Assembly: GCA_021372295.1 (NCBI GenBank) | Contig: JAJFUS010000027.1 | Coordinates: forward strand, 8,378 to 72,377 | Length of the DNA: 64,000 nucleotides | Direction of reading: 5' to 3' | Origin: a bacterium | Lineage (GTDB): Bacteria > Armatimonadota > UBA5829 | Shown here: positions 2-14,189 of the stretch, one piece after another | Numbering within the stretch: the stretch's first letter is position 1 | Layout of the letters: the number at the start of each line of letters is the position of its first letter | Program-made: the position numbers and the translations under genes | The notes under the pieces: model-generated | Seen by the model: only the letters and a program-made list of their open reading frames with translations | What the model was told of the DNA's origin: nothing | Databases searched by the model: none

Positions 2-499
2 TGGAACCCTGGCGTTCACGCGTATATCGCAGACGAATATGCTAAAGTCGCCGAGACCTGGCGCGACAACATAAAGGAAGAGTTGGCGAAGCCCATCGAG
101 CTTGAGAGAGGCCACGAGTATGCCTCCCGCATATTCAACGCCACAATAGGCGACGGAGAGTTGTTTGAGTTTAACGGCAACGTCCGAAATTTCGGTCTCA
201 TCGACAATCTGCCGGAAGGCTGCTGCGTGGAAGTGCCTGTGCTGGCTTCAGAGCGCGGGTTCGACGCGATGCATGTCGGCGCTTTGCCCGCCCAACTGGC
301 CATCCTCAACAACATCAGCGCGCGCTGCGAAGAGTTGGCTGTCGAGGGATGTATCACAGGTGACCCGACAATGATTTACCACGCGATTCTCTTCGATCCT
401 CTGACATCAGCAGTTCTGAGCATGAGCGAGATACAGTCCATGGTCGACGAGATGTTCTATGCCAACAAGGACTGGCTGGCGCAGTTCAAAATAAGGTAA
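2..499 (+). CDS. GH4-family glycosidase (MelA/AglA-like), C-terminal part; 5' end is outside the window
   Basis: The frame of ORF 83..499 stays open back to nt 2. The segment ...FGLIDNLPEGCCVEVPVLA...HVGALPAQLAILN... matches the C-terminal region typical of NAD/Mn-dependent family 4 glycosidases. Confidence 0.7.
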   Translation, partial: WNPGVHAYIADEYAKVAETWRDNIKEELAKPIELERGHEYASRIFNATIGDGELFEFNGNVRNFGLIDNLPEGCCVEVPVLASERGFDAMHVGALPAQLAILNNISARCEELAVEGCITGDPTMIYHAILFDPLTSAVLSMSEIQSMVDEMFYANKDWLAQFKIR

Positions 500-603
500 C
501 GAAGTGCGGATAATATCGGACCTGTGAGCTGTGAGCCATTTTGCACTCGACTCGCAGGATAATATATAATATGAGTATTAGACAATAGGAGTTTTCATTA
601 CTG

Positions 604-1374
604 ATGCAACTAGGTAAGAGCGCTGGCGGCGATAAGCAGAACCCGATTGTAGCCGTCGTAGCAATTGTAATCATATTAGCTGCCGGGTTTATGGTGTATC
701 GCAATATAGCAGCAAACCGGTCTCCGACAGTGATGCCCGCCGACTCCCGAGGCAGTGTTCCTGTTTCATCGGGGCCTATCATGCCCGGAGGTTCGTCGCC
801 GGACGCGCAGAGTCAGCCTGGCGCAGCTCCGGCTGCACCCGCGACGCCTTCACCGAGCGCTTCGCAGGCAGCTCCGGTATCTCAACCTGCGCCGGCTCCT
901 CAGGCAGCTCCGGCTCCTAAAGCCAACCCCGCTCCCGCGCCGCAGCGGACAGCTCAAGTGGCCAAAGAAATACAAATGAAGACTATAAAGGTGTTCGGGT
1001 CGGTTACGGTGAGCTACCCGGACGGCTGGAAAATCAGCGCTTCGCGTGGAAACACATCCGCCCTCTTCACTAACGGGGCGGCTTCGTTCGAGGTGCTCGC
1101 TCCTGACGCAAAGGCAAACTCAGCTAAAGCGATAGCTCTGGCAGCCTTGAAGTCCATCGCGCCTGGGGCATCGGTCAAGAGTCAGGGCGCGGGCAATCTT
1201 AATGGCAGCGACATATACTGGGTTGGATTGACTCGCGGCGGCCAGAAAATGAGAATAGTAGGTGTGGATGCCGCGACTCGGGTCGTCCTGGTAATGCGAG
1301 CGCCAAGCGGCAAGTTCGCCTCACATGCCGATGTCTTCAACAAGATGCAGAACGCCCTGTCTTTCGGCCGATGA
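604..1374 (+). CDS. Membrane-anchored hypothetical protein with a Pro/Ala-rich linker
   Basis: There is an N-terminal TM helix (IVAVVAIVIILAAGFMVY), a long PAPAP-type low-complexity linker and a ~130-aa C-terminal globular part. No family was recognised. Confidence 0.5.
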   Translation: MQLGKSAGGDKQNPIVAVVAIVIILAAGFMVYRNIAANRSPTVMPADSRGSVPVSSGPIMPGGSSPDAQSQPGAAPAAPATPSPSASQAAPVSQPAPAPQAAPAPKANPAPAPQRTAQVAKEIQMKTIKVFGSVTVSYPDGWKISASRGNTSALFTNGAASFEVLAPDAKANSAKAIALAALKSIAPGASVKSQGAGNLNGSDIYWVGLTRGGQKMRIVGVDAATRVVLVMRAPSGKFASHADVFNKMQNALSFGR

Positions 1375-1455
1375 TGATACGCGCCGGTGGGTAAAGAACA
1401 AATAGCATGTCGACCATGGTTCGGCATGCTATATTCTTAAATCCGAGGTGCGCAA

Positions 1456-1944
1456 ATGGAAAGCATCGGTCACGAAATCAGCCCGGGAAAACTAATCCCG
1501 TATTTTTCGCTAGAGTCGACAGACGGCAAAATGATTTCCACCTGGGACTTCAAGGAGAAGATGGGGCTGGTCATCGTCTTTTTCAACCCTCGCAGCAGCG
1601 CCGACCTTGAGGCCATTGCCCAGATTAATAGCCGCTATCAAGAAATTACCGACGAAAACGCCGAGGTTCTGGCCGTGGGGTCGGGCGCGGTGGAAGAGAT
1701 GACAGGCTGCGTCGCCGGTATGAACTTCCGGTTTCCTCTTCTTATGGACTCCAACGGTGAGGCGGCACGCTCGTTTAACGTCGAGCAGGGCGCCATATTC
1801 GCTGCGGACAGATACGGTGAACTGCGTATGAAGGCGGCTCTGGCGGACGATCTGGATTCGACTCTGGACAACGCGATAAACGCCATATCGCTGTCGGAAC
1901 TCGAATGCCCGGAGTGCGGCGTCTCATCGTGGCCGGCGGAATAG
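1456..1944 (+). CDS. Redoxin (AhpC/TSA-fold) protein lacking the peroxidatic Cys, with a C-terminal CPEC motif
   Basis: The layout is peroxiredoxin-like (GLVIVFFNP...AEVLAVG...FPLLMDSNGEAARSFNV). The position of the usual FVCPTE motif reads RSSADLE. The C-terminus carries ECPECG. Confidence 0.55.
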   Translation: MESIGHEISPGKLIPYFSLESTDGKMISTWDFKEKMGLVIVFFNPRSSADLEAIAQINSRYQEITDENAEVLAVGSGAVEEMTGCVAGMNFRFPLLMDSNGEAARSFNVEQGAIFAADRYGELRMKAALADDLDSTLDNAINAISLSELECPECGVSSWPAE

Positions 1945-2196
1945 GCCGACAATCGGATTCCACACCAACCCCCATAGTTTGTTCAGATTGACTCGCATGT
2001 GATTACGGGCAGCGCGTATTGCCGACTTCTTTCAATAGTAATAAATCCAACGGAAGGAATTACGCGGCCGCTTGTCTAATACACACATTGTGGAAAGTTT
2101 CACAAACTCTAGCCATTTTGCTCCAGAAACGTTGTTTCGGAGCAGCACAGCAACTTTTTGGCTTTCCAACTTCGACTTATCAGTGAGGGACAAACT

Positions 2197-3279
2197 ATGG
2201 CACGAGTACATAATTTCAACGCCGGTCCGGCCGCATTGCCGCTGCCGGTTCTGGAAAAAGCGCAGAGCGAACTGCTGGACATAGCCGGCTCCGGCATGTC
2301 GGTGATGGAAATGAGCCACCGCAGCAAGGAGTTCCAGGCCATAATCGACGGCGCGGAGGCCGGAGTCCGCAAGCTGATGGGCGTCTCCGATGACTACAGT
2401 GTGTTGTTCCTGCAGGGTGGGGCGAGCCTGCAGTTTGCGATGATTCCGATGAACCTCCGCAGGCCCGGCAAGAGCGCGGATTATGTCGATACTGGAAGCT
2501 GGGCGTCGAAGGCCATCAAAGAAGCCAAGGTCGGTGACGGCGCGTGCAACGTAATCTGGTCGGGTAAAGAAGAAAAGTATATGCGTGCTCCCAAACCCGC
2601 TGAACTCAGCTTCAGCGCTGATGCCGAGTACGTGCATATCTGCTCGAACGAGACCATCGGCGGAATTCGTTATCCTGTCTTCCCAGAGACCGACGCTCCG
2701 CTGATTGCGGACATGTCCAGCGAGATTATGAGCCGCGTGATTGACGTAAACCGGTTCGGCATGATTTACGCAGGCGCTCAGAAGAACATCGGGCCGTCTG
2801 GGTTGGCGCTGGTAATCATCCGCAGGGATTTGATTGAGCGCACACCCGAGAACGTGCCGATTTTCCTGCGCTACGCCACTCATGCAAACGAGGGAAGCCT
2901 TTACAATACGCCAAACACATGGGGCATTTATATTGTGAAGCTCATCACCGACTGGGTGGAGTCTCTCGGCGGCCTTGCGGCGCTGCAGAAGATTAACGAG
3001 CAAAAATCGGGTAAGCTCTATGACCTGCTCGATTCCAGCGATTTCTGGACAGCGCCCGCCGACAAGTCCAGCCGCTCGATTATGAACGTGGTCTGGAGAC
3101 TGCCCAGCGAAGAGCTTGAAGCCACTTTCGTGAGCGAAGCCAAAAAAGCAGGTATGATTGGCCTGAAGGGTCACAGGTCGGTAGGCGGAATCCGCGCAAG
3201 CATCTATAATGCCGTCCCGATGGAAGCCATTGATGCGCTGGTCTCGTTTATGAAGGACTTCGAGGCGAAAATGGGTTAA
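2197..3279 (+). CDS. serC: Phosphoserine aminotransferase
   Basis: MARVHNFNAGPAALP...MEMSHRSKEF...FLQGGASLQF...GAQKNIGPSGL...GHRSVGGIRASIYNA are canonical SerC motifs. The ATG at 2197 was chosen because it gives the canonical N-terminus. Confidence 0.95.
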   Translation: MARVHNFNAGPAALPLPVLEKAQSELLDIAGSGMSVMEMSHRSKEFQAIIDGAEAGVRKLMGVSDDYSVLFLQGGASLQFAMIPMNLRRPGKSADYVDTGSWASKAIKEAKVGDGACNVIWSGKEEKYMRAPKPAELSFSADAEYVHICSNETIGGIRYPVFPETDAPLIADMSSEIMSRVIDVNRFGMIYAGAQKNIGPSGLALVIIRRDLIERTPENVPIFLRYATHANEGSLYNTPNTWGIYIVKLITDWVESLGGLAALQKINEQKSGKLYDLLDSSDFWTAPADKSSRSIMNVVWRLPSEELEATFVSEAKKAGMIGLKGHRSVGGIRASIYNAVPMEAIDALVSFMKDFEAKMG

Positions 3280-3323
3280 CTATTGACAGGCTTCGGCGGC
3301 CGGTAGTAAAATATATCGGTCGC

Positions 3324-3410
3324 GGGGACGTGGCGGAATGGCAGACGCGCTTGGTTGAGGGCCAAGTGAGCATAACGCTCATGTGAGTTCGACTCTCACC
3401 GTCCCCACCA
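3324..3410 (+). tRNA. tRNA-Leu (anticodon GAG), type II with a long variable arm, encoded CCA; copy 1 (attL side)
   Basis: Manual fold: acceptor GGGGACG/CGTCCCC; anticodon stem CTTGG/CCAAG with loop TTGAGGG; variable arm GAGC/GCTC; T arm GTGAG-TTCGACT-CTCAC; discriminator A plus CCA. Confidence 0.9.
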
Positions 3411-3483
3411 GTGAGTTCAATTGAACTCAAATCTTCCACCTGACAGACTTCCAAACGACTCAAGGACGCTTCCAAAAACTACG

Positions 3484-3527
3484 TAACCGACCTTGGTTTA
3501 TGACTTTCATGTTAACCGTCCTTGGTT
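3484..3527 (+). repeat. Two direct copies of the 15-mer TAACCGTCCTTGGTT (first copy has 1 mismatch) between tRNA copy 1 and int
   Basis: 3484-3498 is TAACCGACCTTGGTT and 3513-3527 is TAACCGTCCTTGGTT. The same 15-mer recurs at the other island end. Confidence 0.75.
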
Positions 3528-3567
3528 CAAATTACCGTGATTTCAGCCCGTTTTCGGGAGGTATATC

Positions 3568-4533
3568 ATGGCGTCAAATCTCGTTAGAGTACCCAACTTT
3601 ACAAGCCTTGCCGATGACCTACAGAGAGCCATTAACGGCTTCCTGAGCTATTGCAAGAGCAAGCACCTCAGCGACAGAACCACCGAATACTACAGCTATC
3701 GGCTTAAGGCACTGAGCAAGTATCTTGCCGACAAAGAAAAGCCTTCCGCCCCAATCTCCCTTACCGCGCAAACCGTCCGAGAGTTCATCACTGCAGAGTC
3801 CGACTCAAAGAGCGCAAGCACGGCAAACCACGACTATATAACCCTGTCGGCATTCTTCAATTACCTCGTGGGGGACGGCTTCATTGAGTCGAGCCCAATG
3901 GAACACGTTGACAGGCCAAAACGCCGGAAGACTGTCATCGACACGTTCTCAATGAAACAGGTCGATGATATTCTTACAACGTGTGGCCGTGACTTCGCTG
4001 GTGTCCGTGACAAGGCCATTGTCATGATGCTGGTGGACTGTGGGCTTCGCGCCTCTGAGATGTGTGGTATCACCTTAAATGACATTGACTGGACTGACTG
4101 CACTGTGCTTGTGTTGGGCAAGGGCGATAAAGAGCGCGTGGTTCCATTCGGGCAGGCGACAAGGCAGGCTCTTACAGCCTACAACGCTAGGCGCGCGGGA
4201 GTCGAAACGGATACCTACTTCGTAAGCACGCTTGGCGCACAGATTGACCGTCACCGGCTCAGAGAGATAATCGGACAACGGTGCGAGCTTGCCAAGATAA
4301 CGGGCGTAAGGTGTTCACCGCACACGTTCCGGCACACAATGGCGGTTCAATACCTCAGGAACGGCGGGGATGTCTTCAGTCTGCAGAAGTTATTAGGCCA
4401 TTCCTCGCTCGATATGACGCGCAAATACGCCGAGTTGAGCCAAACGGACGTTCAGGACAAACACCGGCTGTATAGCCCCGCTGACAGGCTTGAGGCGGCA
4501 AAGCAGACCAAGGGCAGAAAGAGACTGAAGTGA
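3568..4533 (+). CDS. Tyrosine recombinase / integrase (XerC/D-like, 321 aa)
   Basis: It has an N-terminal SAM-like core-binding domain and the catalytic signature ...GLRASE...HTFRHTMAVQYL...LLGHSSLDMTRKY (R..HxxR..Y). Confidence 0.93.
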   Translation: MASNLVRVPNFTSLADDLQRAINGFLSYCKSKHLSDRTTEYYSYRLKALSKYLADKEKPSAPISLTAQTVREFITAESDSKSASTANHDYITLSAFFNYLVGDGFIESSPMEHVDRPKRRKTVIDTFSMKQVDDILTTCGRDFAGVRDKAIVMMLVDCGLRASEMCGITLNDIDWTDCTVLVLGKGDKERVVPFGQATRQALTAYNARRAGVETDTYFVSTLGAQIDRHRLREIIGQRCELAKITGVRCSPHTFRHTMAVQYLRNGGDVFSLQKLLGHSSLDMTRKYAELSQTDVQDKHRLYSPADRLEAAKQTKGRKRLK

Positions 4534-4573
4534 GCGGAGTCAACTTTTCGCGTGGAAACCAAGCCTCTCAGAA

Positions 4574-4798
4574 TTACCTGGGAGGCTTGTAGTTACCAGG
4601 CCGCTTCCAGAGTTCCTCCATCGTTCGGCGGTCTTCCTCTGTCTCTTCCAACCCCACGACATCGCCGTCGATCTGGCCGGAAGCAATGCTAAACTGGAAG
4701 CGCGCCTTTGACCGGCTTATGCCCTGCACGCGCATAGCTTCTTCAATGTATTCGTTCTCGGACATTCCGCGAACGGTCAGTTTTTGTTTCATATTCAT
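4574..4798 (-). CDS. Small hypothetical protein, possible ribbon-helix-helix (CopG-like) fold
   Basis: KLTVRGMSENEYIEEAMRVQGISRSKARFQF resembles the strand-helix-helix pattern of RHH proteins. A 4-nt ATGA overlap with the upstream gene suggests translational coupling. Confidence 0.45.
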   Translation of the reverse strand: MNMKQKLTVRGMSENEYIEEAMRVQGISRSKARFQFSIASGQIDGDVVGLEETEEDRRTMEELWKRPGNYKPPR

Positions 4799-5109
4799 TG
4801 CTGTGTTCCAAAGAAAGCTCTTTTCAGAAACTCATGCACAATTCTTACCTGTGATTCAGACTCAGGAAAGACATATGCGCCAATGTATTCGTCGAAGACG
4901 ACTGTGAAGACAAGGCCGTTGCACTCCATTTTGATGTAAACCGCGTCGTCCGGCGCGAATTTCTTATCGGCAACTTCTGCCCCGTTCTGGTCGCACAAGT
5001 AAACGATAAGCTCGTCCAACTCTTCCTGGGAATCAATTCCACCAAGATAGAAGTGGTCGACCTTGCCTGACTCTTGCCGCAATCTTATCGATGTTACTAA
5101 GAAACTCAT
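4795..5109 (-). CDS. Hypothetical protein, paralog of the adjacent 5106..5444 product
   Basis: It aligns by eye with its neighbour (…AVYIKMECNGLVFTVVFDE…VRIVHEFLKRAF vs …TIFVKMNAGGMSFILTSDD…LDKLREFVEKTV). It has 4-nt overlaps on both sides. Confidence 0.5.
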   Translation of the reverse strand: MSFLVTSIRLRQESGKVDHFYLGGIDSQEELDELIVYLCDQNGAEVADKKFAPDDAVYIKMECNGLVFTVVFDEYIGAYVFPESESQVRIVHEFLKRAFFGTQQ

Positions 5110-5444
5110 GGCTTAACCAGTGCGACAGTTTTCTCCACAAACTCGCGCAATTTATCAAGACTATCATTTGATTCTGAATGCACTTCAGTAACGCCCATGT
5201 CGTCAGAAGTAAGTATAAACGACATACCACCCGCATTCATCTTCACAAAAATAGTTCCTTCAGGGCCAATAGTCTCATCGGTTATTATCACATGGCAGTT
5301 TTCGCGCCAATACCTAACGAGCGCATCCACCGCTTCAGGCGTTTCTATATCGAGAAGCATCAGGCGGGAATTGTCGAATATATAGTATTTTGTCGTTATG
5401 CTGCTCATTGCACACCAAGTTGTATATTGTGAACAGCTTCCCAC
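5106..5444 (-). CDS. Hypothetical protein, paralog of the 4795..5109 product (start may be Met13 at 5408)
   Basis: Same evidence as the previous entry. No known domain was recognised. Confidence 0.5.
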   Translation of the reverse strand: MGSCSQYTTWCAMSSITTKYYIFDNSRLMLLDIETPEAVDALVRYWRENCHVIITDETIGPEGTIFVKMNAGGMSFILTSDDMGVTEVHSESNDSLDKLREFVEKTVALVKP

Positions 5445-5514
5445 GTAAAAGGCGGAAGCTGTTCATGTCTGCAGTCGTCTATTCCAAGCAACTGGTATCC
5501 TAGAAAAATCCTAC

Positions 5515-6084
5515 CTATGCTGCAATGCGATCGTGCTCGTGTTTTTCCTTCAGTTTACATACGCCATTCAAGCGGCACATTGCACACGGATTTAAGGATT
5601 CCTGCACTTGGCAGATACTCTCGCAGTATCCCTGAGTTGGCGGTTCCCAAGTCCATACCGCGTGAACACTGTCATTAACACCATTTGTCATGGTCGAAAG
5701 GTGTAGAGCAACGGCACGAGCGACCAGAGTAATTTCTGTTTCAACTCCATGCCCTGATACTCCGCTGGGCAGGTGAGTTCCAGTAAAAAGCATTGCCTGC
5801 TCGCCTTCGTTGCGGATATACGCCCCCAACGTGTCACCGTCAAACGGCTTGTCAGATTGCCATTTGACGCCAAGTATTTTCAGTATGGCGTTCAAATGGT
5901 CGTAAAGGCCGTCCACATCGTCAGACATCAAATCCTGATTGAAGAATGTAGTATTTACGGAGTTGTGATATACTGGTGTTGTCTCCGTGTCTTCGGAGAC
6001 TGGGGCGGTTGCTTCTTCGCTGGGGCTGACCGCCTCTTTGATATTTACTACTTCCTGCACGTCCTTTTTGCGTAATGCTTGCAT
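5515..6084 (-). CDS. Hypothetical protein with a C-terminal Cys cluster
   Basis: 189-aa ORF ending CESICQVQESLNPCAMCRLNGVCKLKEKHEHD. No family was recognised. Confidence 0.45.
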   Translation of the reverse strand: MQALRKKDVQEVVNIKEAVSPSEEATAPVSEDTETTPVYHNSVNTTFFNQDLMSDDVDGLYDHLNAILKILGVKWQSDKPFDGDTLGAYIRNEGEQAMLFTGTHLPSGVSGHGVETEITLVARAVALHLSTMTNGVNDSVHAVWTWEPPTQGYCESICQVQESLNPCAMCRLNGVCKLKEKHEHDRIAA

Positions 6085-6149
6085 TTTTGGTTCCTCCTGA
6101 ATTGTGTTGCTATTTAGCCGGCTGCTTATGCGCCGGTAAATGCCGTACC

Positions 6150-6941
6150 TTACAAGCCATTGTCCTCGGATGCCTGCCGAAGTTTTTTGTGTGCGTCTCG
6201 TATCGCACTGTTCATAGAATCGCTGTCATCAGCACGGACAGTGATGCCTCTGCTCTTAAGCGTAGCTCCTTGAGGCATATTTTTTATGCCATCTGCTTCG
6301 ATTACCGTGCAACCATTTTTTAGTTCCTCAGCTTCATATTCAATGAAGTGACGTCCCTTTTTGGGCTTAATGCTTAAAACGCATGCGGCATCCTCGTAGC
6401 TGTTAATTACCACGATGTAATCCTTTGGATTTTCTTCAGCGGCACGGAAGTCCTTGTCCATACTGTTTGGGTCGTCCGACCACCCGTCAGCAGGCTTGAA
6501 CCTCTGCAAGGCAGCGCGAATACATTCATCACGATGCCTGTGATATTCTCTTTTGATAGTTTCGGGCTTATGCTTGTGGTTTGGATGAGTGCGATTCCAC
6601 TCGTCTGCCAATTTAGTCCACGAAATGCGTAATGTTGTCATTCGCTCCTGAAACTGGCCTACAAAGGAAACCAATTCCATTCGTGCAAGCACGCGCTTTA
6701 CCGATGGGCGGCGTTTGCCTGCACGTTTCTGCACACTATTAAGCCCCATAGCTTCCAAAGTCACTTCATAGGTGTCAAGAAAATCGTCTTCGTCAAGTGA
6801 GCCATACGTGTTCTCGTAATCTTTGACAAGTCGATTCAATGCTCCAAGAGCTATGGGAAAACCAAAGCGCTTCTCCACGCGCCCGCGAAATGCCTCGAAC
6901 TGCTCGAATGTGAATCCTGAAGGTAGTTCCTTTTTTGTCAA
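6150..6941 (-). CDS. Hypothetical protein (TTG start), divergent from the xis-like gene
   Basis: 263-aa ORF. It is basic in the middle (KRAGKRRPSVKR; WTKLADEWNRTHP...). Its position fits an island regulator, but no HTH could be assigned with confidence. Confidence 0.45.
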   Translation of the reverse strand: MTKKELPSGFTFEQFEAFRGRVEKRFGFPIALGALNRLVKDYENTYGSLDEDDFLDTYEVTLEAMGLNSVQKRAGKRRPSVKRVLARMELVSFVGQFQERMTTLRISWTKLADEWNRTHPNHKHKPETIKREYHRHRDECIRAALQRFKPADGWSDDPNSMDKDFRAAEENPKDYIVVINSYEDAACVLSIKPKKGRHFIEYEAEELKNGCTVIEADGIKNMPQGATLKSRGITVRADDSDSMNSAIRDAHKKLRQASEDNGL

Positions 6942-7055
6942 TGTAAGTCTCCCAACGGGGACTTTTTAGCTTAACTGTCCCCTGCTTTAATGTGTGTATG
7001 ATATACCATAAAACAATGGTTGTCAACTACTATTTTTTACTAGGAGGCACATAAC

Positions 7056-7256
7056 GTGAATGCTCAGACCCTTAAGGTGGAGGAAGCGGCGGAGATATTG
7101 AGGTTGAGCAGGACAGCGGCATATGCAGCAGTTCGGCGCGGTGATATACCGTCAATCAGGATCGGAAAATTGCTGTTTGTTCCCAAGCCCGCACTTGATG
7201 TCATGCTATTGAATGCCGGAAATCCTGCTAAGGTTGTGGGTGAAACAAATGCATAG
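7056..7256 (+). CDS. Excisionase-family / MerR-type HTH DNA-binding protein (Xis-like)
   Basis: LKVEEAAEILRLSRTAAYAAVRRGDIPSIRIGKLLFVPKPALDVML matches the HTH_17 excisionase pattern. AGGAGG lies 8 nt upstream of the GTG start. Confidence 0.8.
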   Translation: MNAQTLKVEEAAEILRLSRTAAYAAVRRGDIPSIRIGKLLFVPKPALDVMLLNAGNPAKVVGETNA

Positions 7257-7266
7257 AGGAAATGAG

Positions 7267-7734
7267 ATGACCAGAGGTTCCAAGCTTGGCGGCACGGCCT
7301 CTGGTCAAGAGTATAACGCTTTTCACAGCGCGTTACTATCCAAATGTTATCCCAAATCAAGCATGGAGTCAATCGGCACGCCGGTCATTGTGAAAACGGC
7401 GCAGGGCTTCCGTGACGCCGGGCACATCCGGTCTATCGGTGACAACCCGGTGTTCATCAAGACTGTGACCACATCCAGGCATTTGCAGCGCAATATGGAT
7501 GCGTGGGGCATCGATGTGCGAGTGGTTAATACGCTCAAGAAGCGCAATATCTGCCGGATACGCATAATCGACACGGAGTCGGGTGCAATCTATGACACGA
7601 TCCTCAATGTAATCGACAATCATGGGGTGTGCCGCGATTTCGGGTATGGCGCGCAGATATTCCTGTCGCGTAAATACTGGTTCCGGGGCGAATCGTATCG
7701 GTTCGGCGGGTCGGGGGCGCGCTATGGCGAATAG
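7267..7734 (+). CDS. Hypothetical protein (island replication module)
   Basis: The ATG at 7267 has GAGGA upstream. Its end overlaps the primase start (7724). Confidence 0.45.
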   Translation: MTRGSKLGGTASGQEYNAFHSALLSKCYPKSSMESIGTPVIVKTAQGFRDAGHIRSIGDNPVFIKTVTTSRHLQRNMDAWGIDVRVVNTLKKRNICRIRIIDTESGAIYDTILNVIDNHGVCRDFGYGAQIFLSRKYWFRGESYRFGGSGARYGE

Positions 7735-10417
7735 CAACCCCACCGAACTGATATTATCCAGGCTGAATGATGTCAGAAAATCCGGCACGGGTTACATAGC
7801 CAGATGCCCGGCTCACGATGACAATGCCCCATCGCTTTCCATATCCGAGGGTGACGCCGGTCAATGCCTGGTTCACTGCCATGCGGGATGTGAACCCGAG
7901 GCTATACTATCGACCATAGGTCTCACGCTCAAGGACCTCTATCCGCCAAAACATGGCGGGCAAATCACTGGTAGGGCGGCAATAGAGCAGGTTTATCCAT
8001 ACGTCAACAAGGCCGGAGAAGTGCTTTACGAGGTCGTGAGATACAAGAACCCCAAGGGTTTCAAGCAGCGCGTTCCAAACAGCACCGGCGGTTATTGCTG
8101 GTCTATGAAGGGTGTGACGCGGGTTCTCTACCAACTTCCGGCAGTGATGGCCGCAATCGAGCGCAATGTGGTCATATTCCTGGTCGAAGGCGAGAAGGAC
8201 GTCCACAGCCTTCACGATAAGCTCTTTCTTTCCGCAACGTGCAATGCAGGCGGGGCAGGCAAGTGGCAGCCGACCTATTCCAAGTCTCTCACCGGCGCGG
8301 ATGTGGTCATACTCCCCGATAATGACATCCCAGGCCGCGAACACGCCGGACGTGTAGCGCAGGCTCTTCAAGGCTATGCAAAGTCTGTGCGAGTACTGGA
8401 ACTGCCTGGTCTGCCTGATAAGGGCGACGTAAGCGACTGGATAGCGGCAGGCGGAAGTCGCGATGAGCTTGTCAGCCTGGTGGAATCCTGTCCGCAGTGG
8501 CAACCCAATACGCTGGAAGTTGCGAAGTCAGCGAACCTGGCGGGCAATGACGAGGGTTTTCCGCTCACCGACCTGGGAAACGCCGAACGCCTGATAGCTG
8601 CGCACGGTAAAAATCTCAGGTATAACGTAGACAGTGGAAAATGGCTCCACTGGAATGACAAGCGGTGGGAACCGGACTGCACAGGCGAAGTAGACCGGCT
8701 CGCACGGCAAACCATACGTGCAATCGCTGATGAAATCGCATCCATATATACTCAGCTAAGTGATGTCACCGACTCCGATGAACGCGATAATATGCGCAAG
8801 CGAGCTGAATCACTCAGCAGCCATATGAAAAACTCCGAATCCATAGCGCGTTTGGATGCTATGATTGCCCTTGCTCGATACTGTACGGGCGTTCCCGTGA
8901 CGGCAGGTCAATTGGACTCCGACGGGTGGCTGCTCAATTGTTCAAATGGGACTGTGGACTTGCGAACCGGCGAATTGCGGGAGCATTCCCAAGCCGATCT
9001 TATGACCAAGCTATGCCCCGTAGACTATGACCCGGCGGCAGCCTGTCCGACGTGGGAAAAGACCGTATCAGAGGTGTTTGACAATAACGCCGAACTCGTC
9101 AGTTACTACCAGCGAGCGCAGGGCTATTGCCTGACTGCAGATACGTCTGAACAGTGCTTCTTCCTGCTTCACGGCGACGGTTCAAACGGCAAATCCACGC
9201 TGCTCAATGTTGCAAAGGACATACTGGCGGACTATTCCCGGTCCACCGGCGTCGATACGTTGATGGTCAAAAGCGGCGCATCGGTTCGAGATATGGAAGG
9301 CGTCGGGCGGCTTATGGGCTCACGGTTCGTGAGCGCCATAGAAACCGACGTCTCCCAGCACCTGGCGGAAGGCCTGGTCAAAAGCCTTACGGGGCAAGAT
9401 GTCGTGACCGGCGCATTCCTTTACGGCTCGACATTCGAGTTCAGACCGACGTTCAAACTCTGGCTGGCCTGCAATCACAAGCCCGTCATTTCGGGCGATG
9501 ACTGGGGCGTATGGCGAAGAGTCCGGCTGGTACCGTTCAATGTCCAGTTCGACGGCGACCGGCGTGACGCAATGCTGCCGGATAAGCTCAAGCTCGAATA
9601 TATAGGGATACTCAACTGGATGGTCCAGGGCTGTCTTGCCTGGCAATCTGCCGGGCTTGGAACCTGCGACGCAGTGAATGACGCTACTGCCGATTATCGC
9701 AAATCACAGGACAAAATGAATGACTTTCTGTCTGACTGCTGCACGCTGGAACCCGATGCGACCTGCACATCAAAAGTCTTATACGACAGATACAAGCTGT
9801 GGTGTGTTGAAAATGGCCTGCGGCATCCGTGGACCAATAAAGTGTTTTCCCAGAAGCTTGGCCAGAGAGGCCTTGAGAGCAAACATATGGTTAACGGACG
9901 CACCTGGACCGGCATCGAACTGAATGAAAACAGCACTTTGCCGCCGGACGCCATTTTTATAGACGAGGAAGATGCTGACTCTACCGATTTGACGGATTAT
10001 GACGCATTGACGGAAAATCCTGAAACTTTTCCACATGAGGATTCACTTGAAAAACTTTCAAAAAAATCCGTCAATGCGTCAACTTTCGTCAAGTCGTGCT
10101 CAGATGGAGAAAAAAACCACGGTTTTGACCTGTCATCTGCCGTCATAAACCGTCATCCTGAGTGTAAGTCCAGGGCTATCACTCAAGAATTGCTTGCTTG
10201 GGGACAATCTCACAACTACCCGCGGCTGCCATTTCAGCCCGGTCACGCCATATGCGAGGGACAAGCCGCGTGGGCTGCATTCACTGCGCGATCCAGCATT
10301 GAACACCGGCAAGTTGCGCTATTGGCAGCAACTACAATCGATAGCGCTGCAGAAAATACGAAGACTAGGGGATTTACAGATGTTTGTGGATATACACAAG
10401 TCCGAGATATTGAGTGA
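7724..10417 (+). CDS. Bifunctional primase-helicase (Zn-finger + Toprim + D5_N/P4-family NTPase)
   Basis: ARCPAHDDNAPSLS...CHAGC zinc motif; Toprim motifs FLVEGEKDV...ILPDNDIPGREHA; Walker A LLHGDGSNGKST; the C-terminal half is like phage/plasmid P4-type primases. Confidence 0.88.
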   Translation: MANSNPTELILSRLNDVRKSGTGYIARCPAHDDNAPSLSISEGDAGQCLVHCHAGCEPEAILSTIGLTLKDLYPPKHGGQITGRAAIEQVYPYVNKAGEVLYEVVRYKNPKGFKQRVPNSTGGYCWSMKGVTRVLYQLPAVMAAIERNVVIFLVEGEKDVHSLHDKLFLSATCNAGGAGKWQPTYSKSLTGADVVILPDNDIPGREHAGRVAQALQGYAKSVRVLELPGLPDKGDVSDWIAAGGSRDELVSLVESCPQWQPNTLEVAKSANLAGNDEGFPLTDLGNAERLIAAHGKNLRYNVDSGKWLHWNDKRWEPDCTGEVDRLARQTIRAIADEIASIYTQLSDVTDSDERDNMRKRAESLSSHMKNSESIARLDAMIALARYCTGVPVTAGQLDSDGWLLNCSNGTVDLRTGELREHSQADLMTKLCPVDYDPAAACPTWEKTVSEVFDNNAELVSYYQRAQGYCLTADTSEQCFFLLHGDGSNGKSTLLNVAKDILADYSRSTGVDTLMVKSGASVRDMEGVGRLMGSRFVSAIETDVSQHLAEGLVKSLTGQDVVTGAFLYGSTFEFRPTFKLWLACNHKPVISGDDWGVWRRVRLVPFNVQFDGDRRDAMLPDKLKLEYIGILNWMVQGCLAWQSAGLGTCDAVNDATADYRKSQDKMNDFLSDCCTLEPDATCTSKVLYDRYKLWCVENGLRHPWTNKVFSQKLGQRGLESKHMVNGRTWTGIELNENSTLPPDAIFIDEEDADSTDLTDYDALTENPETFPHEDSLEKLSKKSVNASTFVKSCSDGEKNHGFDLSSAVINRHPECKSRAITQELLAWGQSHNYPRLPFQPGHAICEGQAAWAAFTARSSIEHRQVALLAATTIDSAAENTKTRGFTDVCGYTQVRDIE

Positions 10418-12169: not shown

Positions 12170-13924
12170 ATGGCATTAAAAGTCGGAGAACTCTATGGAG
12201 AGTTGAGGCTGAATGATTCGGGCTGGAAAGCAACGATGAATTCAGCTCAGAATACATTGCAGAGTTTATCCAGCAATTTAACGGCGCTGGGCGCAACACT
12301 CACGGCCAGTGTAACCCTGCCCATCATTGGACTGGGCGCGGCTGCGATTAAGTCCGCTGGCGATATGGAGCAGACGAAAATCGCACTTACAACTATGCTT
12401 GGCAGCGCCCAACAGGCGACTTCTTTCATTAAGGATGTGCAGAACTTTGCCGCAAAGACCCCGTTCGAGTTTTCGGGGCTTATTCAAAACAGCAAACAGC
12501 TCATCGCATTCGGGTTTGAGGCCAATTCCATCATCCCGGTTATGACGAATCTGGGAAACGCTGTGGCGAGCGTCGGTGGCAACGGCGACACCATCAACCG
12601 TATCATTATGCAGCTTGGGCAGATGAAGAGTATCGGCAAGGCGAGCATGGAAGACATCCGGCCTATCGCCGAAGCTGGTGTGCCGGTATTCCGATATTTG
12701 GCGCAGGGATTGGGCAAGAGCCAGGGCGAAATCAGCAAGATGGTCGGTGCCGGACAACTGAGCGCAGAAGCGTTCATGGATGGCCTGATGAAAGGCATGT
12801 CCAATGATTCCAAGCTCAAGGGCATGATGGACAACCAGAGCAAGACATTCCTCGGGCAGTGGTCAAACCTGAAAGACCAGATATTCCAAACTCTTGTGCC
12901 GCTTGGTGAACCACTGATTAAGATTGCAAAAGACATCCTTAAGGCGACCCAGCCTCTTCTTGACATTGTTAAGAGGGTGGCTGAAGGATTTGCAAAGTCC
13001 CCAAAGTTCGTGCAGATTCTGGGAGTGACATTCGCTGGGGCTGCCGCGTTGGCTGGGCCTCTGCTGGTTGTGGCTGGCAGCATCGCGGGAGCCATCATCT
13101 CAATTATCGCCATTGCGTCGGTTGTGGGGCCTGCGCTCGGGGCCGCCTTTGCGGTTGCGACTGGCCCGGTGGGCTGGGTTGCTGGCGCTATTCTGGCTGT
13201 CGGCGCGGCGTTAGTTATTGCCTACAAAAAAATTGCGCCATTCCGGGATGCTGTGAATGAAGCATGCGGGCGGATTAAAGAGGCGTTTGGTGGGTTGTGG
13301 GACTCGATAAAGAAGTTGTGGAGCGTGCTTGCGCCGGTGAGAGAGGTGATGGGCGCAGTGGCTGGACGTGCGGCGAAAGCTGCGTTGAGTGGCATTGCTG
13401 CTGTGCTCAAAACCATTTCCCAAATCGTTTTAGCTGTGGCTATAAGTATTCAATGGGTGGTGTACCTGCTGAGTAATTTTTTTAATTTATTATTCGGGGG
13501 GAAGAACTCGGCGTTTTCTATCTCAGCGGTTAAAAGCACTGAAGCCCTTGCAAACATTATATACACGGCAAATGAAAAAATAAAAAAAGACAAAAAAAGC
13601 AACATCGCCGAAGCCGCCCAGGCTGAAATCGACAGCATAATGGACGTCATCAAAAAGCAGCGCGAGCAGGCTGAAGAACGCAGGCAGCAACTTCGCGACG
13701 CGATGGGATTCAAGGGCGTGACTGAACTCTGGCGCATGGCCATGGAGGCAGGCATCAAGGGAAGTTTAGGCAGGGCCAAAGAATCAACCGAAATCACGAC
13801 GGCAAATCTTCCGCAGGCCAAGGAACTGCAGGAAATACGGGCAGAAACAAGACGACTAAACCGGCAAGTTTCAGACCTGAATTCGCTTATCAGGGACAGA
13901 CTGGGGGTTGTCAGTGGCACTTAG
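12170..13924 (+). CDS. Phage tail tape measure protein (TP901-type core domain)
   Basis: GDMEQTKIALTTMLGS...AKTPFEF...LIAFG...NRIIMQLGQMKSIGKASMEDIRPIAEAGVPV is the classic TMP core. It is followed by a long Gly/Ala hydrophobic segment and a coiled-coil tail. AGGAGG lies 7 nt upstream of the ATG at 12170. Confidence 0.85.
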   Translation: MALKVGELYGELRLNDSGWKATMNSAQNTLQSLSSNLTALGATLTASVTLPIIGLGAAAIKSAGDMEQTKIALTTMLGSAQQATSFIKDVQNFAAKTPFEFSGLIQNSKQLIAFGFEANSIIPVMTNLGNAVASVGGNGDTINRIIMQLGQMKSIGKASMEDIRPIAEAGVPVFRYLAQGLGKSQGEISKMVGAGQLSAEAFMDGLMKGMSNDSKLKGMMDNQSKTFLGQWSNLKDQIFQTLVPLGEPLIKIAKDILKATQPLLDIVKRVAEGFAKSPKFVQILGVTFAGAAALAGPLLVVAGSIAGAIISIIAIASVVGPALGAAFAVATGPVGWVAGAILAVGAALVIAYKKIAPFRDAVNEACGRIKEAFGGLWDSIKKLWSVLAPVREVMGAVAGRAAKAALSGIAAVLKTISQIVLAVAISIQWVVYLLSNFFNLLFGGKNSAFSISAVKSTEALANIIYTANEKIKKDKKSNIAEAAQAEIDSIMDVIKKQREQAEERRQQLRDAMGFKGVTELWRMAMEAGIKGSLGRAKESTEITTANLPQAKELQEIRAETRRLNRQVSDLNSLIRDRLGVVSGT

Positions 13925-13982
13925 CGAGATGTATTGACACAGCCCGGCACGGGGTAGTATCATACCACCACATGGTAACACG

Positions 13983-14058
13983 AACCAAGGACGGTTACAG
14001 GTGCTTTATAACCGTCCTTGGTTTTGCGAATTACGTTGTTTTGTAATCGTCCTTGGTT
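13983..14058. repeat. Three copies of the 15-mer TAACCGTCCTTGGTT (one inverted, two direct) just inside the attR-side tRNA copy
   Basis: 13983-13997 is the exact reverse complement. 14009-14023 is exact. 14044-14058 is TAATCGTCCTTGGTT. Confidence 0.75.
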
Positions 14059-14102
14059 TTTTGCCCAAGGTGGAGAATTGAACGGGGTTGTGTTTGCCAA
14101 TC

Positions 14103-14189
14103 GGGGACGTGGCGGAATGGCAGACGCGCTTGGTTGAGGGCCAAGTGAGCATAACGCTCATGTGAGTTCGACTCTCACCGTCCCCACCA
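14103..14189 (+). tRNA. tRNA-Leu (GAG), copy 2 (attR side), 87/87 identical to copy 1
   Basis: Direct comparison of the two sequences. It is followed by a terminator hairpin. Confidence 0.9.

What the first reader, a model, noticed from the sequence alone, without database searches (positions are those of the whole stretch)
4574..6941. Five-gene cargo block of unknown function in the int-proximal position, including translationally coupled tandem paralogs and an RHH-like tail gene
Five ORFs (263, 189, 112, 104 and 74 aa) lie between int and the divergent xis/replication module, on the opposite strand. I recognised no family for them. The last three are chained by ATGA overlaps (5106-5109 and 4795-4798). 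The 112- and 104-aa products are clear paralogs by eye. The 74-aa product has a ribbon-helix-helix-like N-terminus (KLTVRGMSENEYIEEAMRVQGISRSKA). In P4-like satellites and PICIs, variable int-proximal slots frequently hold anti-phage or host-takeover cargo. By analogy only, this block is a candidate for a novel defence, interference or toxin-immunity module.
Basis: inference. Interest (0 to 1): 0.65.

Follow-up and report, generated by a model that had tools for sequence, protein, structure and literature searches.

The report
Orphan phage-toxin immunity genes on satellite island
A small mobile island in an uncultured Armatimonadota bacterium carries, next to its integrase, two diverged copies of a phage gene that in phages sits directly behind a toxin-tipped head protein, so the island probably stocks antidotes against toxins delivered by two phage lineages.

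Summary
The five ORFs, their strand and both ATGA overlaps are real. All five score as coding in the annotated frame only. None hits Pfam, PHROGs, PADLOC or NCBIfam. But the block is not one five-gene cargo unit.

- **263-aa gene:** a conserved core gene of a rare family of tRNA-integrating primase islands. It is always divergent from the xis-like gene, so it is probably the element's regulator.
- **Variable slot:** the stretch between that gene and int is empty in one sibling and differently filled in two others. The cargo is therefore four genes.
- **The two paralogs (really 100 and 104 aa):** they are only about 23% identical to each other. Each is 62-65% identical to a small acidic gene of a different phage, placed directly behind a MuF2 (Phage_min_cap2) minor-head gene. 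That protein has a 162-aa C-terminal extension homologous to C-terminal domains of an annotated Rhs fragment and a mycobacterial WXG100-type polymorphic toxin.
- **Best reading:** they are orphan immunity proteins against capsid-borne MuF effectors of two helper-like phage lineages (confidence about 0.5).
- **Still unknown:** the 189-aa gene (one homolog, in an unrelated integrative element) and the 74-aa gene. The RHH call for the 74-aa gene is plausible but unconfirmed.

The parts
3323..3410 (+). attL: complete tRNA-Leu(GAG), left copy of an exact 88-nt direct repeat that bounds the island
14102..14189 (+). attR: second exact copy of the 88-nt tRNA-Leu(GAG) repeat; the island is about 10.8 kb
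3568..4533 (+). Tyrosine integrase (321 aa), convergent with the block; 44-45% identical to the integrases of sibling islands
6998..7026 (-). Near-consensus sigma-70-type promoter TTGACA-17-TATCAT (11/12) driving the leftward genes. The spacer holds the palindrome ACCAT-N6-ATGGT (7005-7020), a possible operator
   Evidence: scan; sequence. Function inferred
6150..6941 (-). 263-aa core gene (TTG start, GGGAG SD 7 nt upstream), pI 8.3. It is a conserved family member in sibling islands and always divergent from the xis-like gene. Probably the island's regulator
   Evidence: homologs E 3e-11 to 1.5e-6, conserved synteny. The regulator role is inferred from position only
5515..6084 (-). 189-aa cargo gene (strong AGGAGG SD), acidic. 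About 45 aa at the N-terminus are low-complexity, and five invariant Cys lie near the C-terminus. It has one homolog (63% id), in an unrelated integrative element. Function unknown
   Evidence: dN/dS about 0.13; AF2 failed
5431..5464 (-). Perfect 11-12 bp hairpin (GAACAGCTTCC-N12-GGAAGCTGTTC) in the 106-nt gap between the 189-aa gene and the three coupled genes. No T-run follows. It marks a module boundary; role unknown
5106..5408 (-). Paralog 1 (100 aa from ATG 5408; pI 4.5). It is 62-63% identical to the small ORF that overlaps (ATGA) the 3' end of a MuF2 gene on phage fragment L007. Predicted orphan immunity protein
4795..5109 (-). Paralog 2 (104 aa; pI 4.5), ATGA-coupled to paralog 1. It is 65% identical to P0008, the 109-aa gene 10 nt downstream of the MuF2 gene of an Armatimonadota phage (L005/L006). 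The AF2 model is confident (pLDDT 88.8), topology b-b-a-b-b-b-b-a. Predicted orphan immunity protein
4574..4798 (-). 74-aa tail gene, ATGA-coupled to paralog 2. It has an RHH-like N-terminal pattern and an acidic tail, and no homolog anywhere. Possibly a regulator of the cassette
7056..7256 (+). Divergent xis-like HTH_17 gene (66 aa) that opens the rightward operon (161 aa, then D5_N primase 7724-10417)

Best explanation
The block is composite. (1) The 263-aa gene is a core gene of a rare family of tRNA-integrating primase islands. It is transcribed from a near-consensus promoter, divergent from the xis-like/primase operon, and it most likely encodes the island's regulator. (2) Downstream, in a slot that varies between sibling islands, lie four accessory genes. 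Two of them (100 and 104 aa, translationally coupled) are diverged versions of a small acidic phage protein. In phages that protein is encoded immediately behind, and in one case overlapping, the gene for a MuF2-type minor head protein whose C-terminal extension is a polymorphic-toxin-type domain. By the logic of MuF toxin-immunity cassettes, these small proteins are binding-type immunity proteins. The island has captured one version from each of two phage lineages, without the toxins. I propose they are made in the integrated state and neutralise the effector domain that arrives inside phage capsids. That would protect the island-bearing cell. It would also protect any new cell that receives the island in a helper-built capsid without the phage's own immunity gene. 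The coupled 74-aa protein may regulate the cassette, and the 189-aa protein is an independent mobile accessory gene of unknown function. Shown: gene structure, homologies, synteny, slot variability, domain sharing. Inferred: toxicity of the domain, immunity function, expression in the integrated state, satellite-helper relationship.
For: Core versus cargo. Full phmmer finds four relatives of the 263-aa protein. Three of the four relatives lie divergent from an HTH_17 gene, a 155-165-aa gene and a D5_N primase, with a 320-aa integrase convergent. The fourth relative (P0013) is known only from 1.2-kb contigs, where it lies divergent from a ParE toxin gene. The slot is empty in L014/L015, and holds 59+94 aa in L011 and 132+92 aa in L009. 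Phage origin of the paralogs. w104 is 65% identical to P0008 and w100 is 62-63% identical to P0009, but the paralogs are only 23% identical to each other. P0008 follows TerL, SPP1_portal and Phage_min_cap2 (496 aa) in L005/L006. P0009 follows a min_cap2 fragment with an ATGA overlap. MuF framework. PF06152 is 'MuF2'; a C-extension of at least 100 aa plus a downstream ORF under 150 aa is the published signature, seen at 89% of MuF toxin genes (PMC5576092). Experimentally proven cases are Apk2/IapK (PMC12226406) and Bxa/Bsi (PMC11699363). Here the Pfam domain ends at residue 334 of 496, leaving a 162-aa extension. Toxin-type domain. The last 108 aa or so match the C-terminus of another MuF2 protein (E 1e-14), a C. 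tetani phage ORF annotated 'Rhs family protein' (1e-11), and the M. abscessus prophage 'polymorphic toxin protein' gp117, which is preceded by a WXG100 gene and followed by two tandem overlapping small acidic paralogs (8e-9). Polymorphism. Between the two phages, identity is 92-96% in the MuF domain, 36-60% in the extension and about 25% in the small ORF. In run X3 a second phage variant aligns on both sides but not across the extension plus small ORF. Other support. The small proteins are acidic (pI 4.2-4.7) and the extensions are neutral to basic. The family folds confidently with no informative structural match. Host and phage are both Armatimonadota from one wastewater study, and low-depth phage-like contigs occur in the island's own run. 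The island TMP is 70% identical and the primase 42% identical to the phage's.
Against: No toxicity or binding has been shown for this domain family or these small proteins, and the domain is absent from Pfam and NCBIfam. The small ORFs behind the distant relatives of the domain (L020; DUF7161 in M. abscessus) are not detectably related to this family. The pairing therefore rests on only two phage loci. The family has only four known members. At 62-65% identity the island copies may not neutralise the sampled phages. There are no RNA data. Nothing shows excision, replication or packaging of the island: its depth equals that of the flanks. The 'Rhs' label is a depositor's annotation on a fragment.
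Confidence: 0.5

Rival explanations
1. Helper interference or hijack. The two small proteins bind the MuF/gp7-like minor head protein of the helper phage, as their phage counterparts do. The island uses them to disturb or redirect helper head assembly or DNA packaging in its own favour, as SaPI Ppi/Cpm or P4 Sid/Psu act on other helper parts.
For: The homologs sit in the head-morphogenesis module between the MuF gene and the scaffold gene. The island shares a TMP (70%) and a primase (42%) with that phage and has a weak TerS-like gene, consistent with a satellite lifestyle.
Against: The genes are in the leftward operon with the regulator-like gene, behind a constitutive-looking promoter, not with the TerS-like/TMP genes of the rightward operon. 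The slot is dispensable in siblings. The C-extension's homology to polymorphic toxins and the hypervariable cassette pattern fit immunity better than morphogenesis.
Confidence: 0.2
2. The three coupled genes form a self-contained conflict module: a toxin-antitoxin or abortive-infection system. The RHH-like 74-aa protein would be the antitoxin or regulator, and the paralogs would act as effectors or as sensors of an incoming phage MuF domain.
For: Tight ATGA coupling of the three genes. RHH-like pattern with an acidic tail, typical of RHH antitoxins (sequence; own knowledge). A second element also has an RHH (NikA-like) gene at the end of its int-adjacent accessory genes.
Against: No toxin or defence family was detected. 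The phage homologs of the paralogs have no RHH partner. The small acidic proteins with a compact a+b fold have no enzymatic signature. The RHH assignment itself is unconfirmed.
Confidence: 0.1
3. Ordinary accessory or regulatory genes with no link to toxins. The small phage gene would be a moron or minor assembly or regulatory factor that happens to sit behind the MuF gene, and the island copies would be hitch-hiking DNA picked up by recombination with phages.
For: No function has been shown for any member. Three different small-ORF families follow relatives of the same domain. The genes have lower GC (43-46%) than their surroundings in both phage and island, as for mobile morons.
Against: Both copies keep intact frames, coding signal and coupling. 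pN is well below pS against the phage orthologs (0.20-0.29 against 0.76-0.80). Two different allelic types are retained side by side. The ATGA overlap with the MuF gene in L007 argues for a stoichiometric partnership.
Confidence: 0.15

Closest known systems
MuF polymorphic toxin-immunity cassettes of temperate phages (Jamet 2017, PMC5576092; Apk2/IapK/Aph1, PMC12226406; Bxa/Bsi/BAH, PMC11699363)
   Same: In the phage relatives (L005, L007) the order is portal gene, then a MuF2 (PF06152) gene with a C-extension of at least 100 aa, then a tightly linked ORF under 150 aa. The N-domain is conserved, while the C-domain and the small ORF are variable.
   Different: The C-terminal domain and the small-protein family are not among described ones and are untested. 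The window holds only the small-ORF homologs, two types in tandem, on a non-phage island far from any MuF gene.
Orphan immunity genes and arrays of polymorphic toxin systems on mobile elements (CDI/Rhs orphan modules; acquired interbacterial defence clusters of Bacteroidales, Ross et al. 2019; own knowledge, not checked here)
   Same: Immunity-type genes without a cognate toxin, several specificities side by side, carried by an integrative mobile element.
   Different: Those arrays protect against contact-dependent or T6SS toxins from neighbouring cells. Here the inferred threat is a toxin domain carried in phage capsids, and the carrier looks like a phage satellite.
Variable anti-phage hotspots of P4-like satellites and P2 phages (Rousset 2022, PMC9122126) and accessory slots of PICIs
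   Same: A slot at a fixed position next to int, flanked by conserved core genes, with unrelated contents in related elements.
   Different: This is not a P4 or PICI family member: no Psu/Sid/Delta or Stl/Ppi/Cpm families were detected. No known defence system lies in the slot. The host is Armatimonadota.
att-proximal PT-Imm cassettes of Mycobacterium abscessus prophages (Dedrick 2021, PMC8092301)
   Same: gp117 of prophiGD43A-1 carries a domain homologous to the MuF C-extension. It is followed by two tandem, overlapping small acidic paralogs and lies next to an attachment junction.
   Different: That cassette includes the toxin with a WXG100 export partner. Its small proteins are DUF7161, unrelated to the family here.
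Master repressors of satellites and prophages transcribed divergently from xis/cro-type genes (SaPI Stl, phage cI; own knowledge)
   Same: Position and orientation of the 263-aa gene, its conservation across the island family, and a palindrome inside its promoter.
   Different: No HTH or other DNA-binding family was detected by Pfam in any of five family members. The role is inferred from synteny only.

Membership tests
MuF polymorphic toxin-immunity system (immunity component) | The partner gene encodes a MuF-superfamily domain (PF04233/PF06152) and lies immediately downstream of the portal gene | tested here: met
   In the phage relatives: L005 has SPP1_portal at 6996-8501, then Phage_min_cap2 at 8501-9991 (2.9e-61). 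The L007 fragment scores 4.7e-10.
MuF polymorphic toxin-immunity system (immunity component) | The MuF protein has a C-terminal extension of at least 100 aa | tested here: met
   The Pfam domain ends at residue 334 of 496, leaving 162 aa. The threshold comes from PMC5576092.
MuF polymorphic toxin-immunity system (immunity component) | The extension is a toxin domain (a known toxin family, or shared with other polymorphic-toxin families) | tested here: inconclusive
   No Pfam, NCBIfam or PDB family. It is homologous to the C-terminal region of an annotated Rhs fragment and of a WXG100-type 'polymorphic toxin protein'. Toxicity itself is untested.
MuF polymorphic toxin-immunity system (immunity component) | [quoted passage not shown] | tested here: met
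   P0008 (109 aa) starts 10 nt after the MuF stop. The L007 ORF (100 aa) overlaps the stop by ATGA.
MuF polymorphic toxin-immunity system (immunity component) | The small protein neutralises its cognate toxin | not testable with these tools
   This needs co-expression or binding assays, or multimer modelling.
MuF polymorphic toxin-immunity system (complete cassette in the window) | A cognate toxin gene lies adjacent to the immunity gene | tested here: not met
   tblastn of the L005/L007 proteins against the window finds no MuF or toxin-domain match. The island ORFs have no such Pfam hits. The window genes are therefore orphans.
Ribbon-helix-helix protein (74-aa gene) | Match to an RHH family profile or structure (N-terminal strand plus two helices, dimeric) | tested here: inconclusive
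   No Pfam hit at E<=1, no PDB sequence hit at E<=5, and no homologs. Only the sequence pattern fits, and no structure was predicted.
Type II toxin-antitoxin or known anti-phage defence system | At least one component matches a known toxin, antitoxin or defence profile | tested here: not met
   PADLOC, Pfam and NCBIfam give no hits for any of the five proteins.
P4-like satellite or PICI | Family marker genes (P4: psu, sid, delta, alpA, alpha; PICI: stl/str-type regulators, ppi/cpm/terS packaging genes) and helper-dependent induction | tested here: not met
   Found: int, HTH_17 xis-like gene, D5_N primase, a weak Sf6_terminase-like 129-aa protein and a TMP_3 protein. No Psu/Sid or capsid-morphogenesis families were seen. 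Induction is not testable, and depth equals the flanks. The resemblance is architectural only.
Variable accessory hotspot of an integrative element family | The same flanking core genes with different contents in related elements | tested here: met
   int (44-45% id), the 263-aa family, xis, the 161-aa family and the primase (45-48% id) are conserved. The slot is empty in L014/L015 and different in L009, L011 and the window.
Master repressor at a divergent promoter (263-aa gene) | Divergent from the xis/cro-type gene, and carrying a DNA-binding domain | tested here: inconclusive
   Position is met in three of the four relatives; the fourth (P0013), known only from 1.2-kb contigs, lies divergent from a ParE toxin gene instead. 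No DNA-binding family was found in five members. A Myb-like W..LA.EW..(K)P..IK..Y pattern seen by eye is a lead only.

The most novel reading that the evidence does not exclude
Phage satellites can carry antidotes to their helpers' capsid-borne toxins. A cell that receives the island inside a helper-built capsid also receives the MuF effector, but not the phage genome that encodes its immunity. The island therefore has to bring the immunity gene itself, one version per helper lineage it exploits. If true, this would be a new class of satellite adaptation. It would also be indirect genetic evidence that MuF toxins act in the recipient cell after ejection, which is still an open question for this toxin family.
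Probability: 0.3. Interest if true: 0.8.

Novelty: new variant of a known kind. Interest (0 to 1): 0.6.

Why it matters
MuF toxins are widespread in temperate phages, but their biological role is unsettled: when and where they act, and whom they harm. An island that keeps only the immunity-type genes, in two specificities, next to its integrase and under a strong promoter, implies selection for protection of cells that do not carry the phage. That would make sense if the toxin is delivered with the virion.

The locus supplies a simple testable set: two toxin-domain variants, and four small proteins to test as cognate and non-cognate partners.

It also defines three things absent from current libraries:
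- a new small-protein family with a confident fold;
- a new polymorphic-toxin-type C-terminal domain shared by MuF, Rhs-annotated and WXG100 toxins;
- a rare family of minimal primase islands in Armatimonadota with a variable slot next to int.

Tried and rejected
- **Curated profile libraries.** Pfam, PHROGs, PADLOC and NCBIfam gave nothing for the five proteins. They also gave nothing for P0008/P0009 and the MuF extension, or for the slot genes of sibling islands.
- **Word-indexed search of 5.8 billion proteins.** The 263-aa protein found only itself. The 189-aa protein found one relative.
- **PDB sequence searches** of all families found nothing meaningful.
- **AlphaFold of the 189-aa family** (2 sequences) gave pLDDT 38 and is unusable. 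It was not sent to Foldseek.
- **Foldseek of the paralog model.** Against PDB and BFVD the best results were E=0.08 and 5e-3, with TM<=0.52. Only weak, recurring TBP-like-fold domains appeared (RnlA N-domain, TnsE C-domain, Iml3, AlkA N-domain), so I draw no functional inference.
- **Scans for the paralog and 189-aa families.** Viral and metagenome contig scans found nothing for either family. The genome-contig scan (paralog family only) found just the already known Armatimonadota contig.
- **tblastn against phages and plasmids.** No match for P0008 (phages only), the 189-aa protein (phages and plasmids) or the 74-aa protein (phages and plasmids).
- **Small ORFs behind distant relatives of the toxin-like domain.** I tested whether the L020 ORF and the M. 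abscessus DUF7161 proteins belong to the paralog family. They do not, detectably.
- **IMG/VR loci with related primases** (80 loci). None has the 263-aa, 189-aa, paralog or toxin-domain families, so they are not siblings.
- **Polymorphism-based selection test.** The second copy of the island (L002) is 100% identical across the block, so it gives no information.
- **Expression.** Only DNA wastewater runs hold the sequence.
- **Excision or replication.** Island depth is 26.8 against 24.6-27 in the flanks, with no circle junction.
- **Helper prophage in the window.** None was found.
Full report
**Observation.** They lie between a tyrosine integrase (3568-4533, +) and a divergent HTH_17 xis-like gene (7056-7256), which is followed by a D5_N primase. 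The two ATGA overlaps (5106-5109 and 4795-4798) can be read directly. Each ORF has a positive codon-usage score in its own frame and negative scores in the other five. Pfam, PHROGs, PADLOC and NCBIfam recognise none of them.

Two corrections apply.
- The '112-aa' gene almost certainly starts at ATG 5408 and encodes 100 aa. That is the product on record. Its phage homolog begins MSNITTRSY against MSSITTKYY here. The upstream GTG sits inside a perfect 11-12 bp hairpin at 5431-5464.
- The two small proteins are only 22-23% identical. They are nevertheless significantly related (E=9e-9; joint profile).

The RHH reading of the 74-aa protein could not be confirmed by any search.

**The element.**
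- The genes sit in a 10.8-kb island bounded by an exact 88-nt direct repeat. Each repeat copy is a whole tRNA-Leu(GAG) gene (3323-3410 and 14102-14189).
- Repeated AACCAAGGACGGTTA motifs lie inside both ends.
- The rightward operon holds the xis-like gene, a 161-aa gene, the primase, a weak Sf6_terminase-like 129-aa gene and a TMP_3 tape-measure-like gene.
- The source is contig JBDKTN010000011.1 of MAG GCA_039698155.1, from a wastewater metagenome.
- The flanking serC product clusters at 90% identity or more with a protein of an Armatimonadota MAG.
- Island depth equals that of the flanks and no circle junction is seen. The island is therefore a stable single-copy insertion in that sample.

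**Core versus cargo.** The 263-aa protein has no relative in the word-indexed search. An exhaustive phmmer search finds four (E 3e-11 to 1.5e-6). Three of the four relatives lie divergent from a 60-66-aa HTH_17 gene, a 155-165-aa gene and a D5_N primase, and a 320-aa integrase lies convergent with them. The fourth relative (P0013) is known only from 1.2-kb contigs, where it lies divergent from a ParE toxin gene. BLAST confirms that the integrase (44-45%), xis-like gene (46%), 161-aa gene (26-29%) and primase (45-48%) are shared.

So the 263-aa gene is a core gene of a rare island family, in the place where satellites and prophages keep their master regulator. An 11/12 sigma-70-type promoter (7026-6998), with a palindrome in its spacer, drives it (sequence). 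No DNA-binding family was detected in any member, so the regulator role is inferred from position.

The stretch between this gene and int differs in every relative:
- empty in L014/L015 (a 125-nt gap);
- 59 + 94 aa on the int strand in L011;
- 132 + 92 aa in L009;
- four same-strand genes here.

The cargo is four genes, not five, and its GC content is lower than that of the flanks (47.7% against 53-55%).

**The paralogs come from phage head modules.** A profile of the two proteins retrieves only two outside relatives among 5.8 billion proteins.
- **P0008** (109 aa) is 65% identical to the 104-aa protein. It lies on two Armatimonadota MAG contigs in the order TerL, SPP1_portal, Phage_min_cap2 (496 aa), P0008, a 140-aa gene, scaffold, capsid, tail genes and TMP.
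- **P0009** is 62-63% identical to the 100-aa protein. It lies on a 1-kb contig, directly behind the 3' end of another Phage_min_cap2 gene, with its ATG overlapping that gene's stop.

Each island paralog is thus far closer to a different phage's gene than to its neighbour. They are two captured allelic types, not a recent tandem duplication. The same phage also shares a tape-measure protein (70% over 414 aa) and a primase (42%) with the island.

**The partner is a toxin-tipped MuF protein.** Jamet et al. define PF06152 as the MuF2 branch of the MuF superfamily. In their scheme the muf gene sits directly after the portal gene. Long forms carry C-terminal extensions of at least 100 aa, which are toxin domains where recognisable. 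89% of the toxin forms are followed by an ORF under 150 aa taken to be the immunity gene (PMC5576092). Two MuF toxins and their adjacent immunity proteins have since been proven experimentally. Their binding-type immunity proteins are largely cognate-specific (PMC12226406; PMC11699363).

In L005 the Pfam domain ends at residue 334 of 496. The extension has no Pfam, NCBIfam or PDB match. tblastn against phage genomes shows that its last 108 aa or so recur in three other settings:
- at the C-terminus of another MuF2 protein in a gut phage scaffold (E 1e-14);
- in a C. tetani phage ORF annotated 'Rhs family protein' (1e-11);
- in the 'polymorphic toxin protein' gp117 of M. abscessus prophiGD43A-1 (8e-9). 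That gene is preceded by a WXG100/ESX gene and followed by two tandem, overlapping, acidic DUF7161 paralogs.

One C-terminal domain on different delivery domains is the defining signature of polymorphic toxins.

Between the two Armatimonadota phages, identity falls in steps: 92-96% in the MuF domain, 36-60% in the extension, and about 25% in the small ORF. In run X3 a second, more abundant phage variant aligns on both sides of this stretch, but not across it. The small proteins are acidic (pI 4.2-4.7), whereas the extensions are neutral to basic.

**Structure.** With a four-sequence alignment, AlphaFold gives a confident model of the family (pLDDT 88.8, pTM 0.80). It is a compact a+b domain with the order b-b-a-b-b-b-b-a. 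Foldseek finds nothing significant in PDB or BFVD. That is common for binding-type immunity proteins, but it proves nothing.

**The other two cargo genes.**
- **189-aa protein.** It is acidic, with a low-complexity N-terminus and five invariant cysteines near the C-terminus. It has a single relative (63% identity, dN/dS about 0.13). That relative lies next to the integrase of an otherwise unrelated element (different integrase, Toprim primase, DnaB, VapC-like PIN), where it is followed by a NikA-like RHH gene. It is a mobile accessory gene of unknown function, and its model failed.
- **74-aa protein.** It has no relative anywhere. Its pattern fits an RHH with an acidic tail, and it is translationally coupled to the paralogs. 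It may regulate the cassette. I rate RHH at about 0.6, on pattern alone.

**Mechanism proposed.** I propose that the leftward promoter expresses the regulator-like gene and the cargo in the integrated state. The two small proteins would bind and neutralise the C-terminal effector domain of MuF proteins carried in the capsids of two phage lineages. This would protect the resident cell. It would also protect a new recipient that gets the island in a helper-built capsid without the phage's own immunity gene.
- **Shown:** the homologies, the synteny, the domain sharing, the polymorphism pattern, and the co-occurrence of host, island and phage in one wastewater study. That co-occurrence includes low-depth phage-like contigs in the island's own run.
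- **Inferred:** toxicity, binding, timing of expression, and the satellite-helper relationship.

**Rivals.** The rivals are listed with their tests in the Rival explanations section: interference with helper head assembly, a self-contained TA or abortive-infection module built around the RHH-like gene, and function-neutral morons.

**Limits.**
- The paralog family has four members and the toxin-like domain family is uncharacterised.
- More distant relatives of the domain are followed by unrelated small ORFs.
- No expression or mobility data exist.
- No paper in the searchable library links MuF immunity genes with phage satellites.

Noticed in passing
window 12170-13924 (+): A 10.8-kb island with no capsid, portal or large-terminase genes nevertheless encodes a 584-aa TMP_3 tape-measure-like protein. 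It is 70% identical over its first 414 aa to the tape measure of the Armatimonadota phage in L005. A satellite carrying its own tape-measure homolog is unusual; it might alter tail length or interfere with tail assembly.
   Followed up: partly
window 3455-3539 and 13971-14060: Several copies, direct and inverted, of the motif AACCAAGGACGGTTA lie just inside both island ends. They are likely arm-type binding sites for Int/Xis.
   Followed up: no
window 9985-10096: A 54-nt imperfect inverted repeat (74% complementary, 4-nt spacer) lies within the 3' part of the primase gene. It is a candidate replication origin of the island.
   Followed up: no
L014 about 291-6569; L013: Sibling islands at tRNA-Val are only about 6.3 kb (int, 263-aa-family gene, xis-like gene, 159-aa gene, primase, 177-aa gene). 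They have an empty slot and no TerS-like or TMP module, which probably makes them the minimal form of this island family. In L013 the same island is interrupted by an IS66 transposase.
   Followed up: partly
L005 9665-9988; L018 999-1337; L019 2498-2824; L020 2992-3312: An uncharacterised domain of about 108 aa is shared by MuF2 proteins, a clostridial phage ORF annotated Rhs, and a mycobacterial WXG100-type polymorphic toxin. Its invariant positions are R, Y, R-N, R, M, I and G (alignment A7). It is absent from Pfam and NCBIfam.
   Followed up: partly
L005 9576-10365, run X3: Two phage variants coexist in one wastewater run. They align at about 82% identity on both sides, but not across the MuF C-extension plus the small ORF. 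That stretch is a hypervariable cassette.
   Followed up: partly
L003/L004 (JGI 3300037484, SRR12684511): The only relative of the 189-aa gene lies in a different integrative element: 293-aa integrase, HTH_17-PIN pair, Toprim primase, DnaB. It sits between int and the primase and is followed by a NikA-like RHH gene.
   Followed up: partly
window 6945-6964: A stem-loop overlaps the GGGAG Shine-Dalgarno of the TTG-initiated 263-aa gene. It was reported by the terminator scan on the + strand. It could limit translation of the regulator-like gene.
   Followed up: no
L069 (IMGVR_UViG_3300045988_135283): An 18.6-kb viral contig combines a related primase, a homolog of the island's 129-aa TerS-like protein (42%) and a TMP-like protein (29%). 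It may be a more distant element of similar design.
   Followed up: no
window 20175-28622 (+): A single 2815-aa ORF lies in the host flank. It was not examined.
   Followed up: no
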